A stretch of 64,000 bases of DNA from a virus (Duplodnaviria; Caudoviricetes). Within the stretch, counting starts at the first letter, position 1, and every line of letters starts with the position of its first letter. The DNA is taken from the IMG/VR virus record IMGVR_UViG_3300027983_002388. One strand, written 5' to 3'. The position numbers and the translations under genes were made by a program. Positions 1,959 through 9,556 of this stretch are shown here, in pieces. A model generated the notes under the pieces. That model searched no databases, was not told where the DNA came from, and saw only the letters and a list, made by a program, of their open reading frames with translations.

Positions 1959-2032
1959 GGCTCAGTAGGCAATCGGCAGACCACCCAGGCTTAAACCCAG
2001 GGATGCTGTGAGTTCAAATCTCACCTGAGCCA
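1959..2032 (+). tRNA. tRNA-Leu(TAA), short variable arm
   Basis: GGCTCAG/CTGAGCC-A, loop CTTAAAC, GTGAG-TTCAAAT-CTCAC; A-A mismatch in anticodon stem. Confidence 0.85.
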
Positions 2033-2047
2033 CTTGATTTTTAATAC

Positions 2048-4947: not shown

Positions 4948-5208
4948 TCATACAACAATTCTTACGTTTCCGGGTGGCTTTCTAGGAGCCATCTCTCCCT
5001 GTCCCAAAATCATTACAGAGTGTCCAACTTGTGTTAGGTGAAACTCTAAAGTCACATCCTCAACCATCCAAAGTCCCATGCCAGTTCCATTACAGTGTGG
5101 ACAAGGTCCATCAACCAAACCACTGCAATTACAATTTCCACAAGATTTCTTTACGAAAAAATCCATATCCATCTCCGCCACAAGTGTAACAAAAATCACA
5201 TGGCACAA
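4948..5208 (-). CDS. Small Zn-finger protein (DnaJ-like CxxCxGxG)
   Basis: CGNCNCSG and CPHCNGTG motifs. Confidence 0.55.
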   Translation of the reverse strand: MCHVIFVTLVAEMDMDFFVKKSCGNCNCSGLVDGPCPHCNGTGMGLWMVEDVTLEFHLTQVGHSVMILGQGEMAPRKPPGNVRIVV

Positions 5209-5481
5209 AATCGCTCAGTGGAAGAAAGAATGAACATTTTGGCTCTTATCCCAATTGGTGGGATTGCCGGTATGCCGCCATATACGCCACATGCAGGATC
5301 AGGAAAAATCGCCTGTGCTGGCTGTGGTATAGCTTGTTGGATCGGTCCTCGTCAAACCGTGATGAAGCTCGAAAAGCCTGAACTCCCGGCATTGTGCATG
5401 TTGTGTGCGTGCAAAGAAATACAAAAACAAAAAGAATCAGACGAAGAAGTAACTGCATCCGTGATTCCATTAGGTGATTGA
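5200..5481 (+). CDS. Small Zn-binding hypothetical protein
   Basis: CAGC and CMLC motifs. Confidence 0.6.
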   Translation: MAQNRSVEERMNILALIPIGGIAGMPPYTPHAGSGKIACAGCGIACWIGPRQTVMKLEKPELPALCMLCACKEIQKQKESDEEVTASVIPLGD

Positions 5482-5483
5482 AT

Positions 5484-6134
5484 ATGCAAAGAGATTATAG
5501 TTGGAAGCCATCCTGGAGTCCTATTCACAAAGAATGTGACGTTCACCCTCATGTCCCTGCGGAACGTGCTGATTTATTTGAGGTCGCCGATGGCGGCTCT
5601 ACTGAATATGAAGTCTTAAATTGGCTTCATTCCACAATCCGAGTATTGAAGCCACAACTGGTTCTTGAAACTGGTGCGTGGGAGGGTTTCGGAACAACCG
5701 CCCTAGCTCATGCTTGCAAACTCAATGGATTCGGCAAGGTGCATTCTCTTGAAGTTCTGCCGCCACAATGCGTGCGACTTCAGACGGTTCTTGAAGAAGA
5801 ACACTTGCTTAAATGGGTTGAAGTGCATTGCGTAGATTCGCTTGAATTCTTGCAACAATCTAATATTATCTTCGATATTGGATTCTTTGATAGCCTGACC
5901 GAGATCAGGCCCATCGAATGCGAGATAATGCTCAACAAAGGCACGTTGAGAAACCTTGCTGTCTTCCACGACACATCGCCTCATCGGTCTGAATCCGCTC
6001 CTGATTGGACCAGCACAGAAACTCAAAACACATACAGAGAAAAGGTCTTGGCCTTAGCCAAACATCCCCGATGTACTGGCTACTATGATTCCCCACTATC
6101 CAGAGGATTCATGGCCTTGTTCTTAAAAGGCTAA
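5484..6134 (+). CDS. Class I SAM-dependent methyltransferase (Methyltransf_24-like)
   Basis: [12 protein letters not shown] motif I, FFDS, VFHDT. Confidence 0.8.
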
Positions 6135-6135
6135 C

Positions 6136-6473
6136 ATGAAAAACGTAGTTGTAATGTTCCCATATCCATCGGGTGCCGGTTTACACTTGGGGCATTACTA
6201 TAATTATGCCATTATCGACAGCTATTGTCGATTTCTGCGATATGAGGGCGAAGAAGTCTTTCAGCCTTTTGGATATGACGCATTCGGACTGCCTGCCGAG
6301 ATCAAGGCTTGAAGAATTCAGTACGAAATTATTTGTTCTTTTGGAAAGTGAACAAGGTGGTCAGCACATTCATGACCTTCTATAACGACAACAAAGACAA
6401 AAAAGTCTCGCCCGCCAACGCCAAAGAGATTGTCCAGTTGCTTCAAAATTTTGCACCTGGATTTAATCTTTGA
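6136..6473 (+). pseudogene. leuS: Leucyl-tRNA synthetase relic: N-terminal HIGH region joined out of frame to the C-terminal anticodon-domain helices
   Basis: 6136..6312 reads [14 protein letters not shown]...[12 protein letters not shown]; a different frame from 6300 to 6473 reads ...KVNKVVSTFMTFYN...EIVQLLQNFAPGFNL*. Not in the ORF track. Confidence 0.85.
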
Positions 6474-7189
6474 AAATATCGTTCTGCACAACTTGTATGG
6501 GCAGGGTTCATCATCTAATGAGAACCCTGCCCATAAATATTCATGTCGCTCCAGATTGCGAATTTGTGTTGCTTAACTATGGCAGCAAAGATGGAATGCA
6601 CGAGTGGGTCCGAGACAATATGCGTCCTTGGATAAATCGAGGAACCATCAAGTATTATAGAACTCAGCTTCCTGAATACTTCGTGGCGACACATGCCAAA
6701 AACATTGCACATCGCCAAGCGACCGGCGATATTCTTTGCAATTTAGACGCAGACAATTTCTTGATTGACGGCTTTGTTGAATTGGTTAAAAAGACCATGA
6801 GCGACAAACAAAGCATTATGACTGCTCCTATATTTGATATGTTCAATATGTCGGGCAGTTGCGGAAAGATAGCAGTTCATCGAGAGCATTTCTATAGCGT
6901 AAATGGATACAACGAAGACATCAATTTGGGATGGGGGTGGGATGATATTGATTTTGAATTACGTGCAGCCATGCACAACAAATTGAAATACGCTCAAACT
7001 CCCGTGAAGTTTTGCCGAGTAATAGACCACGACGAATCAGATCGAGTCAAGAACTTTCGCACCAAAAACTTGAAGGATTCCCAACGGACAAATGGGGAAC
7101 TGTTGGAAACGGTGAAAAATACTAGAAATTACGTTGTCAACAAAAACAGAGAGTGGGGAGTTGCATTAGATTTATCCAGTGATATATAA
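6470..7189 (+). CDS. Glycosyltransferase (GT2/GT7-like)
   Basis: KISFCTTC, NLDADNF DxD motif, GYNEDINLGWGWDDIDF. Confidence 0.85.
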   Translation: MKISFCTTCMGRVHHLMRTLPINIHVAPDCEFVLLNYGSKDGMHEWVRDNMRPWINRGTIKYYRTQLPEYFVATHAKNIAHRQATGDILCNLDADNFLIDGFVELVKKTMSDKQSIMTAPIFDMFNMSGSCGKIAVHREHFYSVNGYNEDINLGWGWDDIDFELRAAMHNKLKYAQTPVKFCRVIDHDESDRVKNFRTKNLKDSQRTNGELLETVKNTRNYVVNKNREWGVALDLSSDI

Positions 7190-7192
7190 GAC

Positions 7193-7417
7193 ATGATTAA
7201 ATTCAAAGACTGGATGCAGACAAGAGAAGCCAAACTCCGAGAAATGGGGAGTGGTCCATATATTGGAAACTGCACTGACACCAGTGATTATCAAGTAATT
7301 GGTGCTTGTAGCGATCAAAATTCCGAAGAAAAGAACAAGGCGTATCGAAAAGGTGGCGTAGACCACAAAAAAGTCCACAAGCATTCCGACAAGATCAGAT
7401 CAAAAGTCGGTATATAA
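7193..7417 (+). CDS. Putative capsid-packaged protein (MIKFKDWMQTRE N-terminus)
   Basis: ATATATAA 3 nt upstream of ATG; CTS-like N-terminus. Confidence 0.65.
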   Translation: MIKFKDWMQTREAKLREMGSGPYIGNCTDTSDYQVIGACSDQNSEEKNKAYRKGGVDHKKVHKHSDKIRSKVGI

Positions 7418-7420
7418 GGT

Positions 7421-7840
7421 ATGATGACGTTCAAGGAATTCGTGGGATCGCAAGAAGTACAGCCGCAGGTGCAACAGCCTCAAGCGGCTGGTTCTCAGCA
7501 ATCATCCAAATGGAAGGCCACAAAAGATGAAATTGTGGGCTACTGGAAGAACTTACGTCCCGACACACCCGTCCAAATGCGAGCCATTGATTACACCCAT
7601 AAGGGATCAACATATGGCGAAGACGGAATGCGACTAACAGGCAGTCCGCAGTTTATTGCATCAATTTTAGCCAGAATGAAAGAGTTGTTGACTTACGAAA
7701 CTCCAACAACCAAACTCGCCGTTACATATCGACAAACAGAGTCCCCCAGCAAGATGGCAATGGGACAAAGTAAAACTTCCTACGTCTTTTACGTTGCTGC
7801 TCGTCAACGTGGCGGCAAAACTCAAATCGCACCCAACTAG
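7421..7840 (+). CDS. Putative capsid-packaged protein (MMTFKEFVGSQE N-terminus)
   Basis: TATATAA 3 nt upstream of ATG; CTS-like N-terminus. Confidence 0.7.
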   Translation: MMTFKEFVGSQEVQPQVQQPQAAGSQQSSKWKATKDEIVGYWKNLRPDTPVQMRAIDYTHKGSTYGEDGMRLTGSPQFIASILARMKELLTYETPTTKLAVTYRQTESPSKMAMGQSKTSYVFYVAARQRGGKTQIAPN

Positions 7841-7923
7841 ACTTGATTTTATCTTTCGTGATTGTATACTCATAACTTGTGTTGAGAACCAACCAAGGCC
7901 CCAAAGGAGAGTTTACAGTGAGT

Positions 7924-8370
7924 ATGAAAATTGCGTGGACGATTGCCGGAATTGTCGGAATTTCCGCTCTGTGTGTGGGATCAATGACGTGGCACGCCTG
8001 GAGTGTCCAGAAGGAAAACCAACGACTCTCGCTGGTGAATTACATCTATGTTGCGGAGCATCGTATTCTCAAGGATGAAATCTCTGAACTTGCATCTAAG
8101 CCAACATACGATCAGGGATATAAAGACGCTCTGATCCGCATCGGCGGACCACAAGTCCCTGGTGCATACCAAGATGGCTGGGACGACGCTCAGAAGCTCT
8201 GTGGTGCGGAAAACAATTACGCAGACGGGTATCACGCTGCAATCCAACAGTTTGGATATACTAAGACTACAACAATGGCTCGTTGGTTGGTTCCCGAACC
8301 AAAAGACAAGGCTATTGCTGCGGATAAGTCCAACAAGGAAGGCATCACGCCTGCTAAATTGGAAAAGTAA
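7924..8370 (+). CDS. Hypothetical membrane-anchored protein (repeated GYxDG motifs)
   Basis: N-terminal TM helix; TTGATT-N16-TATACT upstream at 7843..7870. Confidence 0.7.
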   Translation: MKIAWTIAGIVGISALCVGSMTWHAWSVQKENQRLSLVNYIYVAEHRILKDEISELASKPTYDQGYKDALIRIGGPQVPGAYQDGWDDAQKLCGAENNYADGYHAAIQQFGYTKTTTMARWLVPEPKDKAIAADKSNKEGITPAKLEK

Positions 8371-8450
8371 TCCAAACCGCTATAGAAAGCATTGGCTACA
8401 GTAAATCGGGTGATTTAGGGAAAGGTACGTCCTTTCCTTTGGGGAAACAA

Positions 8451-8555
8451 AGACAGCCAGGATGTTGGCCTAGAAGTAGCCAACATTCAAAGAGTAGGGT
8501 TACACAGGGACTTCCTGTTAACGGACCCTTTTGGTGTAATAACACACTGGCCGAG
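8451..8555 (+). ncRNA. Stand-alone mimic of the 23S rRNA GTPase-associated centre (H42-H44, L11-binding domain) with a 38-nt insertion; transcript may span about 8390..8636
   Basis: AGACAGCCAGGATGTTGGCCTAGAAGTAGCCAACATTCAAAGAGT [insert] GTGTAATAACACACTGGCCGAG aligns to 23S nt 1046-1112 (E. coli numbering, from memory) with compensatory changes. Confidence 0.88.
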
Positions 8556-8593
8556 CCACCCAACACTCGACACTGGCAATGCTGGTGCCTGGA

Positions 8594-8636
8594 GAGCATG
8601 TCGCCGACGAAGGCTTAGGCGACATGCTCATTTTTT
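8594..8636 (+). terminator. Intrinsic terminator
   Basis: GAGCATGTCGCC/GGCGACATGCTC 12-bp stem followed by ATTTTTT. Confidence 0.8.
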
Positions 8637-8651
8637 GAAAAGAAAGATGAA

Positions 8652-8834
8652 ATGATAGCTTGTATTTGCGGTGGATTTTTGGAACTAGGTTACATCCTAG
8701 TGATGGCAATTATTTCTATTTCGGGAGCAATATTTGGCACCAACTGGTACAATACAGCACGATATAAAAAGTACATAAAATACAAAGACAAACACAAAGG
8801 CTGTGGTTGCGACTGTCACAAAGAAGACGAGTAG
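8652..8834 (+). CDS. Small membrane protein
   Basis: One TM helix, Cys/His-rich tail. Confidence 0.6.
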   Translation: MIACICGGFLELGYILVMAIISISGAIFGTNWYNTARYKKYIKYKDKHKGCGCDCHKEDE

Positions 8835-8837
8835 TGC

Positions 8838-8919
8838 GGCCCTGTGGTGGAATTGGAATACACATGGGACTTAAAATCCCACGCCGAAAGGATTGCGGGT
8901 TCGAGTCCCGCCAGGGCTA
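8838..8919 (+). tRNA. tRNA-Leu(TAA), canonical long variable arm
   Basis: GGCCCTG/CAGGGCT-A, TGGGA-CTTAAAA-TCCCA, GCGGG-TTCGAGT-CCCGC. Confidence 0.95.
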
Positions 8920-8922
8920 CGT

Positions 8923-8951
8923 TTTACAAGATGCCTAAAACGTGGTAAAAC
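8923..8951 (+). promoter_or_regulatory. Sigma70-like promoter for tRNA-Leu(TAG)
   Basis: TTTACA-N17-TAAAAC with TG extension. Confidence 0.5.
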
Positions 8952-8952
8952 T

Positions 8953-9033
8953 GGCCGAGTGGTGGAATGGCATACACGATGGTTTTAGGAACCATTGCCG
9001 CAAGGCTTGCAGGTTCAAGTCCTGTCTCGGTCA
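8953..9033 (+). tRNA. tRNA-Leu(TAG), canonical long variable arm
   Basis: GGCCGAG/CTCGGTC-A, ATGGT-TTTAGGA-ACCAT, variable arm GCC-GCAA-GGC. Confidence 0.95.
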
Positions 9034-9061
9034 CTAATGAGGAATGAGGAATGAGGATACG

Positions 9062-9556
9062 ATGGAAGTTTCGGTTGGCGATTACGGTCGCATGATGTTC
9101 GAGATGATGGTTGCTGAAAAAGGCAATCTCCCGGAACACTGGCAAAGCATTCAAGTCCTTGCTGAACCTCTAGTTCGTCAGCTTATTGCCCTCAACGGTC
9201 AAATGACTAACGGTGGATATGAAATCCACGGTTATGTTGAACCGGGCAACAAGAAAATATTATCCAAACACGAACTGATCCAAGCCGCTCAAGAAAAAGC
9301 CCTAAAGTTCCCTGCCAATAAATTGAAGATAGGCGACCGTCTTTGGTTGATTGAAGATGGTGAGCTTGACATGAGTTTCGACCAAGACCCTGTGGCAGTA
9401 AGTGATATTGGCAATACAGGCAGCATCTATGTTGAAATGCAAGGCGGATACGTTGCCCAAATCCACCCTTCTAACCTTGTGTTGAAGGCACCAGACGATT
9501 GGGATGAAAACGAAGATCAATATCGTTCTGATGATTACTGGTTAAATGCAAAATGA
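9062..9556 (+). CDS. Hypothetical acidic protein
   Basis: ORF; GAGGA SD. Confidence 0.7.
   Translation: MEVSVGDYGRMMFEMMVAEKGNLPEHWQSIQVLAEPLVRQLIALNGQMTNGGYEIHGYVEPGNKKILSKHELIQAAQEKALKFPANKLKIGDRLWLIEDGELDMSFDQDPVAVSDIGNTGSIYVEMQGGYVAQIHPSNLVLKAPDDWDENEDQYRSDDYWLNAK

What the first reader, a model, noticed from the sequence alone, without database searches (positions are those of the whole stretch)
6136..6473. Hidden LeuRS relic with a large internal deletion and no C-terminal domain
Seen: a 58-codon ORF below the track cutoff carries the LeuRS start ([24 protein letters not shown]). At about 6300 it joins, in the -1 frame, the anticodon-domain helices (NKVVSTFMTFYN...LLQNFAPGFNL*). The rest of the catalytic core, CP1 and KMSKS are gone, and the reading ends right after FAP, so the ancestor already lacked the CTD. 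Established: the bacterial LeuRS CTD contacts the tRNA elbow and variable-arm region. Inference: the ancestral phage had a compact LeuRS, possibly matched to the short-variable-arm tRNA-Leu genes nearby.
Basis: partly seen in the sequence, partly recalled or inferred. Interest (0 to 1): 0.7.

Follow-up and report, generated by a model that had tools for sequence, protein, structure and literature searches.

The report
Decaying remnant of compact phage LeuRS
This 338-base stretch is the broken leftover of an unusually small leucyl-tRNA synthetase gene that many huge phages carry intact, and related phages show the leftover being whittled away step by step.

Summary
Window 6136-6300 encodes the first 55 residues of a LeuRS, including HLGH. 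Window 6300-6470, one frame back, encodes the last 57 residues. Both pieces map onto one ~420-aa protein family found in uncultured huge phages, for example the 422-aa protein of LR745206.1.

A single deletion of about 925 nt (3n+1) removed residues ~56-365, including KMSKS. The ancestor also never had a CP1 editing domain, so the deletion did not remove one.

The remnant is decaying:
- A strain in another metagenome lacks a further 226 nt.
- The two closest sister phages lack the whole segment.
- Three other lineages carry differently truncated copies, two of them beside the same glycosyltransferase gene.

The proposed match to short-arm tRNA-Leu is not supported as a rule. Four of six near-complete genomes with an intact enzyme have short-arm tRNA-Leu, but two have only long-arm ones, including the relic's closest intact relative. 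The LeuRS-less window lineage keeps its short-arm tRNAs.

I found no published description of the compact enzyme family. The scan had also noted this stretch in an overlapping window.

The parts
6136..6312 (+). N stub: a 58-codon ORF. Codons 1-55 (6136-6300) are residues 1-55 of the compact LeuRS. Codons 56-58 (IKA) and the stop TGA 6310-6312 are out-of-frame junction sequence.
6184..6195 (+). HLGH, the class I 'HIGH' signature. It is the only catalytic motif left.
6298..6306 (+). Deletion junction. N-frame homology ends at GAG 6298-6300. C-frame homology (DQGLK, aligned to DGFQK of the family) starts at 6300-6306. About 925 nt (3n+1), about 310 codons, are missing.
6300..6473 (+). C stub, in the -1 frame: the last 57 codons of the compact LeuRS (the last helices of the anticodon-binding domain) plus the stop TGA 6471-6473. 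The listed ORF starts at TTG 6309, which overlaps the N-stub stop.
6202..6427 (.). Segment missing from a near-identical strain. A 610-nt contig of run X5 (depth 16.5) joins 6201 directly to 6428. This is a further deletion inside the relic.
6135..6468 (.). The whole relic segment is absent from the syntenic sister phages L002 and L003 (L032 and L033 are the same phage as L003). There the methyltransferase stop TAA is followed directly by the glycosyltransferase start TTG. TGAAAA occurs at both edges in the window (6137-6142 and 6471-6476).
5478..6134 (+). Upstream neighbour: a Methyltransf_24-type methyltransferase. Its stop lies 1 nt before the N-stub ATG.
6470..7189 (+). Downstream neighbour: a family 2 glycosyltransferase. 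Its TTG start overlaps the C-stub stop (TTGA). The same stop/start overlap with a LeuRS 3' end is seen in L076 and L080.
1959..2033 (+). Context: short-arm tRNA-Leu(UAA), 75 nt. Further short-arm Leu genes lie at 163-239 (CAA) and 1805-1881 (GAG). Long-arm Leu genes lie at 2048-2130, 8838-8920 and 8953-9034.

Best explanation
Window 6136-6473 is a non-functional, still-shrinking remnant of a compact phage leucyl-tRNA synthetase gene. The intact gene encodes about 420 aa: the Rossmann core with HIGH and KMSKS, the zinc knuckle, and a short anticodon-binding helix bundle. It has no CP1 editing domain, no leucine-specific insertion and no C-terminal tRNA-binding domain.

One internal deletion of about 925 nt fused codon 55 to about codon 365 and shifted the frame by -1. 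It removed most of the active site, including KMSKS, so the locus cannot make a synthetase.

I infer that only the two gene ends survive because they carry the translation signals of the neighbours. The methyltransferase stop lies 1 nt before the relic's ATG. The N-stub stop overlaps TTG 6309. The C-stub stop overlaps the glycosyltransferase start. Only deletions that spare or recreate these junctions would persist.

Shown: the identity of both pieces, the architecture of the intact family, the reality of the junction, and further loss in strains and sister phages. Inferred: the gene once stood intact at this locus, and the ends are kept for translational coupling rather than as proteins.
For: - Both stubs map to the two ends of one family, each in its own frame and up to the shared stop.
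- The intact family is large and strongly conserved: 120 clusters at 72-86% identity to the LR745206.1 protein, HxGH in 118 of 120, a KMSKS-like motif in 104 of 120, on contigs up to 780 kb. It is also found in 39 IMG/VR contigs.
- The AlphaFold model has pLDDT 86.6. It aligns to T. thermophilus LeuRS at Z 35.8 over 414 residues, and the alignment ends before the C-terminal domain.
- The closest PDB sequence is the CP1-less Mycoplasma mobile LeuRS, E 4e-82.
- Decay series: a strain with a further 226-nt deletion; an F45S change at a nearly invariant residue in strain L079; complete absence in the syntenic L002 and L003.
- An independent relic in L074/L075 has a different junction (residues 1-83 fused to ~377-422) and an in-frame TAG after HLGH.
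- C-terminus-only relics lie directly upstream of the orthologous glycosyltransferase in L076/L077 and L080, with the same stop/start overlap.
- The junction is identical in independent assemblies.
Against: - No relative has been found with an intact LeuRS between this methyltransferase and glycosyltransferase, and intact homologs sit in other contexts. An intact ancestor at this exact locus is therefore inferred, not seen.
- The stubs look well conserved as proteins. The N stub of the window and that of L074 differ at 35 of 165 nt but at only 3 residues, plus L074's in-frame TAG (dN 0.028, dS saturated). The first 14 codons of the C stub show 11-12 nt changes and no amino-acid change between L074 and L076/L080. 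Either the breaks are all recent and independent, or the stubs are still under selection.
- Expression was not examined.
- The rest of this phage's genome could not be searched for a second, intact copy.
Confidence: 0.88

Rival explanations
1. The stubs are domesticated small proteins, or one ~112-aa fusion made by a programmed -1 shift. Selection keeps them for a function unrelated to aminoacylation.
For: - Amino-acid conservation is very high against saturated synonymous change between independently truncated copies.
- The C-terminal piece is kept next to the same glycosyltransferase in three diverged lineages (GT identity 49-57%, C stub 60-64%).
- Stop/start overlaps would allow coupled translation.
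Against: - A near-identical strain has deleted 226 nt, covering most of both stubs.
- The sister phages lack them entirely.
- L074 has a TAG inside the N stub, and TAG is used as a normal stop in that contig.
- No X XXY YYZ slippery site is present at 6290-6312 (read).
- The window's C stub has no ATG.
- The Met that starts the C-only ORFs of L076 and L080 is an ancestral internal residue also present in intact proteins.
Confidence: 0.07
2. The window lineage never had an intact gene here. An already truncated LeuRS fragment was inserted between the methyltransferase and the glycosyltransferase by illegitimate recombination.
For: - The two nearest syntenic relatives lack exactly the interval between the stop and the start.
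- With only three lineages the direction of the indel cannot be set from them alone.
- Intact homologs are never found next to these two genes.
Against: - L076/L077 and L080 carry a LeuRS 3' end fused to the orthologous glycosyltransferase start with the same overlap. LeuRS-to-GT adjacency is therefore older than the window lineage.
- The observed polymorphism is further loss, not gain.
- An insertion would have had to land exactly from start codon to stop codon.
Confidence: 0.05
3. Assembly or sequencing artefact: a collapsed or chimeric contig.
For: None found. This rival is considered only because the window comes from a metagenome.
Against: The same sequence is present in a 22-kb contig at depth 364 and an 11-kb contig from another study, in JGI contigs from two samples at 99.85-99.94% identity, and on 10 contigs overall.
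Confidence: 0.01

Closest known systems
Mycoplasma mobile LeuRS (PDB 3ZIU), a natural bacterial LeuRS without the CP1 editing domain
   Same: It is the best PDB sequence match of the intact phage family (E 4e-82). The structural match has Z 34.6 over 418 residues. Both lack CP1.
   Different: The M. mobile chain is 637 aa, and the model aligns only to its residues 37-551. The phage enzyme is about 215 aa shorter and ends at the anticodon-binding domain. M. mobile LeuRS is the cell's only LeuRS, whereas the phage enzyme is an accessory gene. The window holds only a broken copy.
Canonical bacterial LeuRS (T. thermophilus 1OBC/2BYT, E. coli 4AQ7; NCBIfam TIGR00396)
   Same: Same catalytic core, zinc knuckle, HIGH and KMSKS motifs and anticodon-binding helices. 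About 40% identity and Z about 35. TIGR00396 is the best family by a wide margin (398 bits against 161 for MetRS).
   Different: The intact phage form lacks T. thermophilus residues ~228-416 (CP1), ~437-486, ~579-636 (leucine-specific domain) and everything after ~790 (the C-terminal domain). It scores below the curated cut-off (398 against 548.4). From memory, and not tested here: deleting the C-terminal domain abolishes charging by E. coli LeuRS.
Divergent LeuRS paralogues with reduced or no charging: LeuRS-I of Sulfolobaceae and LeuRS2 of Halobacteria (reviewed in PMC9437257)
   Same: These are extra LeuRS copies with altered editing or C-terminal domains. Their role may lie outside bulk translation.
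   Different: They are archaeal-type, full-length proteins in cells. They are not half-size bacterial-type enzymes in phages.
Aminoacyl-tRNA synthetase genes of huge phages (Al-Shayeb et al. 2020, PMC7162821)
   Same: Same setting. That paper reports up to 15 synthetases per huge phage genome and suggests that they charge phage tRNA variants. LR745206.1 is an uncultured 634,780-bp phage record in the same size class.
   Different: The main text of that paper gives no domain analysis. I found no description of the compact LeuRS or of its decay.

Membership tests
Bacterial-type leucyl-tRNA synthetase (class Ia; TIGR00396 leuS_bact) | N-terminal Rossmann strand with the HIGH signature | tested here: met
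   HLGH at 6184-6195. The N stub matches LeuRS at E 2e-14 in PDB and E 4e-20 against TIGR00396.
Bacterial-type leucyl-tRNA synthetase (class Ia; TIGR00396 leuS_bact) | KMSKS loop and a complete catalytic core | tested here: not met
   Residues ~56-365 of the family, including KMSKS, are absent from the window. They are present in the intact homologs.
Bacterial-type leucyl-tRNA synthetase (class Ia; TIGR00396 leuS_bact) | CP1 editing domain | tested here: not met
   Not in the window, and not in the intact family either. The alignment to T. thermophilus LeuRS skips residues 228-416, and no other Pfam domain was reported up to E 0.1.
Bacterial-type leucyl-tRNA synthetase (class Ia; TIGR00396 leuS_bact) | C-terminal tRNA-binding domain after the anticodon-binding domain | tested here: not met
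   The relic and all 120 intact clusters end 1-22 residues after the last helix motif. The model aligns to T. thermophilus only up to 790 and to E. coli only up to 772.
Bacterial-type leucyl-tRNA synthetase (class Ia; TIGR00396 leuS_bact) | Whole-protein score at or above the curated cut-off (548.4 bits) | tested here: not met
   Intact P0053 scores 398.4 bits and the N stub 71.5 bits.
Bacterial-type leucyl-tRNA synthetase (class Ia; TIGR00396 leuS_bact) | Leucylation of tRNA-Leu | not testable with these tools
   This needs an enzyme assay of an intact homolog. The window copy lacks the active site.
Compact (~420 aa) LeuRS family of huge phages (alignment A2) | N terminus alignable to family residues 1-55 | tested here: met
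   Identity is 62-87% (median 75%), equal to the within-family median of 76%. One of 32 conserved columns differs.
Compact (~420 aa) LeuRS family of huge phages (alignment A2) | C terminus alignable to the last ~55 residues and ending at the same stop | tested here: met
   E 3e-8 in the pairwise comparison, and hhalign probability 98.75%. The closest intact C termini are L058 (54%) and L063 (56% over 41 aa).
Compact (~420 aa) LeuRS family of huge phages (alignment A2) | Uninterrupted ORF of 385-472 codons | tested here: not met
   Two ORFs of 58 and 54 codons in different frames, with about 925 nt missing.
Pseudogene (gene remnant) | Frame disruption and loss of essential motifs relative to intact homologs | tested here: met
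Pseudogene (gene remnant) | Dispensable: polymorphic for further loss, and absent in close relatives | tested here: met
   A 226-nt deletion variant. Absent in L002 and L003.
Pseudogene (gene remnant) | Neutral substitution pattern since inactivation | tested here: inconclusive
   Between independent relics dN is low and dS is saturated. This dates most of the divergence to before the breaks, or it means residual selection. No outgroup is close enough to decide.

The most novel reading that the evidence does not exclude
In some huge-phage lineages the compact LeuRS (no C-terminal domain, no editing domain) and the short-arm, class-I-shaped tRNA-Leu genes would form a phage-private leucylation pair. 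In L064 the nearest tRNA gene on each side of the enzyme gene is a short-arm tRNA-Leu, and in L060 short-arm tRNA-Leu genes lie within about 600 nt on both sides. Four of six near-complete genomes have both. On this reading the window shows a lineage that has dropped the enzyme but kept the tRNAs, because a host LeuRS can also charge them.
Probability: 0.15. Interest if true: 0.75.

Novelty: new variant of a known kind. Interest (0 to 1): 0.48.

Why it matters
The relic itself is an ordinary pseudogene, but it points to two things worth knowing.

First, huge phages widely carry a strongly conserved LeuRS about half the normal size. It lacks the editing domain, the leucine-specific insertion and the C-terminal tRNA-binding domain. 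The C-terminal domain is, from memory, required for charging in E. coli. If the compact enzyme charges tRNA, it becomes a natural test case for the minimal requirements of tRNA-Leu recognition and for translation without editing. It would also be a candidate compact part for orthogonal translation systems.

Second, the window, its strain variant, its sister phages and three other lineages together give an unusually complete series of how a phage sheds an accessory translation gene while protecting the expression signals of the neighbouring genes. The series shows that these 'translation modules' are evolutionarily labile. It also shows that the short-arm tRNA-Leu genes do not depend on the phage enzyme.

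Tried and rejected
- Megablast of 5000-9200 against the phage collection found no match.
- The C stub alone gave nothing against Pfam, PDB or NCBIfam.
- The word-index search for longer relatives of the C stub found 2 candidates, neither significant.
- The last word-index search, with the N stub at near lengths, gave mostly contig-edge or frameshifted N-terminal fragments. No further clear fused relic turned up apart from P0123.
- No whole genome is held for the window, and the 155-kb ENA contig with the same relic cannot be searched. A second, intact LeuRS elsewhere in this phage is therefore untested. None is present in the 64-kb window.
- The metagenome scan with the glycosyltransferase returned only the phage already known as L003, plus one distant hit.
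- I first read the C stub as decayed, with 5 of 16 conserved columns changed. I rejected this because those residues are the signature of its own sub-branch, which includes intact genes.
- The Met start shared by the C-only ORFs of L076 and L080 is not a derived start. Intact L063 and L073 have Met at that column.
- TAG recoding as a rescue of the L074 relic is rejected, because 2 of 16 genes there end in TAG.
- L074 is not syntenic with the intact locus L028.
- The sigma-70 promoter scan was no better than shuffles (4 sites found, 5.4 expected). Terminator-like sites (6 found, 2.7 expected) all lie outside the relic.
- No RNA holder was listed among the public runs.
- In the nearest-neighbour test, 8 of 22 flanking tRNAs are Leu, against a 23% background in the same flanks (p 0.12, not significant).
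- Among the Rfam-only tRNAs of G009 and G010 I saw no short-arm tRNA-Leu on reading their anticodon loops; a few are too odd or too long to read confidently.
- In the curated phage collection only LR745206.1 carries a true family member. LR756501 and LR756503 have a different ~500-aa form at 34% identity. The matches in 'Listeria', 'Staphylococcus' and similar phage records span about 2 kb in two pieces, as a full-length LeuRS with CP1 would; I suspect bacterial DNA but did not check.
- Complex prediction was not used, because no protein-protein claim is made.

Full report
**1. What is in the sequence**

On the + strand an ORF of 58 codons runs 6136-6312, and an ORF of 54 codons runs 6309-6473 in the -1 frame.

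The first ORF is clearly the N terminus of a bacterial-type LeuRS.
- It matches T. thermophilus LeuRS residues 37-88 at E 2e-14.
- It hits NCBIfam TIGR00396 at E 4e-20.
- It passes the Pfam cut-offs of the class I synthetase families.
- HLGH lies at 6184-6195.

The second ORF has no hit of its own in Pfam, PDB or NCBIfam, so its identity needed an intact relative.

**2. The intact relative**

A tblastn search of the phage collection placed both stubs in one record, LR745206.1, an uncultured 634,780-bp phage, about 1.1 kb apart. The ORF there encodes 422 aa.
- The N stub aligns to its residues 6-59 at 80% identity, E 7e-33.
- The C stub aligns to residues 370-422, up to the stop, at 42% identity, E 3e-8.

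This protein belongs to a large family.
- The 120 best clusters are 385-472 aa long (median 423).
- They are 72-86% identical to the LR745206.1 protein.
- They sit on contigs up to 780 kb.
- JGI often names them leucyl-tRNA synthetase.
- 39 IMG/VR contigs carry the gene. Some are complete genomes of 450-520 kb with terminal repeats.

Every one of the 120 clusters aligns to the two stubs at its two ends. A profile of C-stub relatives matches family columns 354-423 at 98.75% probability.

**3. Architecture of the family**

The best PDB sequence match is the CP1-less Mycoplasma mobile LeuRS (E 4e-82). Against T. thermophilus LeuRS the alignment skips residues 228-416 (CP1), 437-486 and 579-636.

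Pfam finds only class I catalytic-core families. It finds no editing-domain or Anticodon_1 hit.

An AlphaFold model of P0053, built from 51 sequences, has pLDDT 86.6 and pTM 0.87. It superposes on LeuRS structures at Z about 35 over about 414 residues. The alignment stops at T. thermophilus 790, E. coli 772 and M. mobile 551, which is the end of the anticodon-binding domain.

HxGH is present in 118 of 120 clusters and a KMSKS-like motif in 104 of 120. Tails after the last motif are 1-22 residues.

CP1, however, was never there to be lost. TIGR00396 is the best family by far (398 bits), but the score is below the curated cut-off of 548.4. I call the family LeuRS-derived and probably active. I do not call it a proven LeuRS.

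**4. The lesion**

N-frame homology ends at GAG 6298-6300. C-frame homology (DQGLK, aligned to DGFQK) begins at 6300-6306. The relic is 338 nt and the intact genes are about 1,260 nt, so about 925 nt (3n+1) are missing. That accounts for both the loss and the frame shift with a single event. What is left is the first strand-helix unit with HIGH and the last helices of the anticodon-binding domain (model helices 362-374 in part, 378-392 and 399-409).

**5. It is real, and it is still shrinking**

- Contigs of 22 kb (depth 364) and 11 kb from different studies cover 5400-7300 with no difference.
- JGI contigs from two samples are 99.85-99.94% identical and carry the same relic.
- The exact N-stub protein is on 10 contigs overall.
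- In run X5, a glacier metagenome, a contig at depth 16.5 joins 6201 to 6428. That strain has lost a further 226 nt.
- Strain L079 has F45S at a nearly invariant family residue.
- The two closest syntenic phages lack the whole segment. These are L002, a 223-kb contig, and L003, which is the same phage as L032 and L033. Both are about 84% identical to the window in DNA. In both, the methyltransferase stop TAA is followed at once by the glycosyltransferase start TTG.
- None of five related records contains a compact LeuRS, though all are incomplete.

**6. Other relics, and the direction of change**

An exhaustive search with the C stub returned mainly short proteins.

L074/L075 carry an independent collapse. 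Family residues 1-83 are fused in frame to about 377-422, and a TAG follows HLGH. TAG is a normal stop in that contig. Its deletion overlaps the window's but is not nested in it. The window keeps about 14 C-side residues that L074 lacks, and L074 keeps 28 N-side residues that the window lacks. The two events are therefore separate.

L076/L077 and L080 retain only the last ~70-76 residues. These lie directly upstream of the orthologous glycosyltransferase (49% and 57% identity to the window's) with the same stop/start overlap. LeuRS-to-glycosyltransferase adjacency therefore predates the window lineage. That makes loss in L002 and L003 more likely than a fragment insertion in the window. No relative with an intact gene at this locus was found, so this step remains an inference.

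The nearest intact C termini belong to L058, L056 and L063. This is a branch of 421-431 aa proteins that share the window's [14 protein letters not shown] and WKVNKVVS...FYN...FAPG signatures. The signatures explain why the C stub first looked decayed against the main family. I withdrew that reading.

**7. Why the ends survive**

The gene junctions are tight.
- The methyltransferase stop lies 1 nt before the ATG at 6136.
- The N-stub stop TGA 6310-6312 overlaps TTG 6309.
- The C-stub stop TGA 6471-6473 overlaps the glycosyltransferase TTG 6470.
- L076 has ATGA and L080 has TTGA at the same place.

I infer that deletions which break these coupling signals are removed by selection. Internal deletions, and exact stop-to-start deletions as in L002 and L003, are what remain.

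One observation does not fit this comfortably, and I leave it open. Independent relics are very similar as proteins although synonymous sites are saturated. For the N stub of the window against L074, dN is 0.028 with 35 of 165 nt changed. For the first 14 C-stub codons there are 11-12 nt changes and no amino-acid change. Either several breaks happened recently in lineages that had long kept the enzyme, or the stubs retain some function. The 226-nt deletion strain, the TAG in L074 and the clean absence in the sister phages argue against function in the window's phage.

**8. The tRNA link**

The window has three short-arm tRNA-Leu genes (163-239, 1805-1881, 1959-2033) and three long-arm ones. 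The scan had already noted this.

| Genome with intact enzyme | Short-arm tRNA-Leu | Long-arm tRNA-Leu |
|---|---|---|
| LR745206.1 | 3 | 2 |
| G008 | 3 | 2 |
| G007 | 1 | 5 |
| G006 | at least 1 | at least 1 |
| G009 | 0 | 4 |
| G010 | 0 | 5 |

In G009 and G010 I saw no short-arm tRNA-Leu among the tRNAs that only Rfam found. G010 holds one of the relic's closest intact relatives.

Conversely, short-arm tRNA-Leu persists in this window, where the enzyme is broken. It also persists in G001, where no enzyme is seen in 223 kb.

There is some physical linkage.
- tRNA-Leu genes make up 32 of 137 tRNAs within 10 kb of the enzyme, against roughly 27 of 290 genome-wide.
- In L064 the nearest tRNA gene on each side of the enzyme gene is a short-arm tRNA-Leu.
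- In L060 short-arm tRNA-Leu genes lie within about 600 nt on both sides, although the immediate neighbours there are tRNA-Val genes.
- The nearest-neighbour test is not significant.

Established knowledge weakens the need for a matched enzyme. E. coli LeuRS relies on A73 and the tertiary core, not on the long variable arm, and arm-less variants are still charged (PMC9976931). From memory, the bacterial C-terminal domain contacts the tRNA elbow rather than the variable arm. It is the archaeal enzyme that reads the arm. I rate the link as possible in some lineages and not as a rule.

**9. Novelty and verdict**

I found no description of a compact phage LeuRS or of its decay in the searchable literature. 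Al-Shayeb et al. report phage synthetases only in general terms. In the curated phage collection only LR745206.1 carries a family member, so no cultured phage is available.

The feature in the window is a pseudogene. Its value is that it exposes an undescribed minimal LeuRS architecture and a well-resolved loss series. I rate interest at about 0.5 and class it as a new variant of a known kind.

Noticed in passing
L017-L020 (LR745206.1); L083-L120 (G006-G010): These huge phages carry 82-95-nt versions of tRNAs that are normally class I, alongside normal 72-77-nt copies with the same anticodon. Examples are Asn-GTT 87-90 nt, Lys-TTT 84-88, Thr-TGT 85, Met-CAT 83-91, Glu, Gln, Ile, His, Trp, Arg and Cys. 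This is the mirror image of the short-arm tRNA-Leu genes. Whether the extra bases are long variable arms or small introns was not examined.
   Followed up: no
L028:7503-8000, L029:7431-8000, L030:5182-5751, L031:6062-6631: Directly upstream of an intact compact LeuRS lies a 165-189-aa ORF, abutting its start. The ORF hits only the class II synthetase core family PF00152 (Asp/Lys/Asn type). It is either a second miniaturised synthetase-like gene or another remnant.
   Followed up: no
L083-L101 (G008 and G010): Two tRNA genes with anticodon CTA (amber suppressor type, labelled tRNA-Pyl by ARAGORN) occur in each of two complete ~500-kb phage genomes. This hints at TAG read-through or recoding in those phages.
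   Followed up: no
LR756501.1 and LR756503.1, 191955-193460: The 735-kb phages carry a different compact LeuRS-like ORF. It is about 500 aa, 34% identical to the 420-aa family, and aligns in one piece covering 99% of the query. LeuRS miniaturisation may therefore have arisen more than once.
   Followed up: no
L080:1-198: The gene upstream of the C-terminus-only LeuRS relic encodes a C-terminal sequence that looked to me, from memory, like planctomycete-type DUF1549 proteins. Its stop overlaps the relic's ATG (ATGA). This would fit a planctomycete host or a prophage setting, but no domain search was run.
   Followed up: no
L002:5364-6654: The sister phage has two tandem copies of the methyltransferase (55% and 89% identical to the window's single copy) just upstream of the place where the relic is missing.
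   Followed up: no
L106:200-273 and L108:219-292 (G009): Two near-identical tRNA-like genes have an enlarged anticodon loop. ARAGORN reads a 4-base anticodon, AGAA. They could be frameshift-suppressor-like tRNAs or degenerate tRNAs.
   Followed up: no
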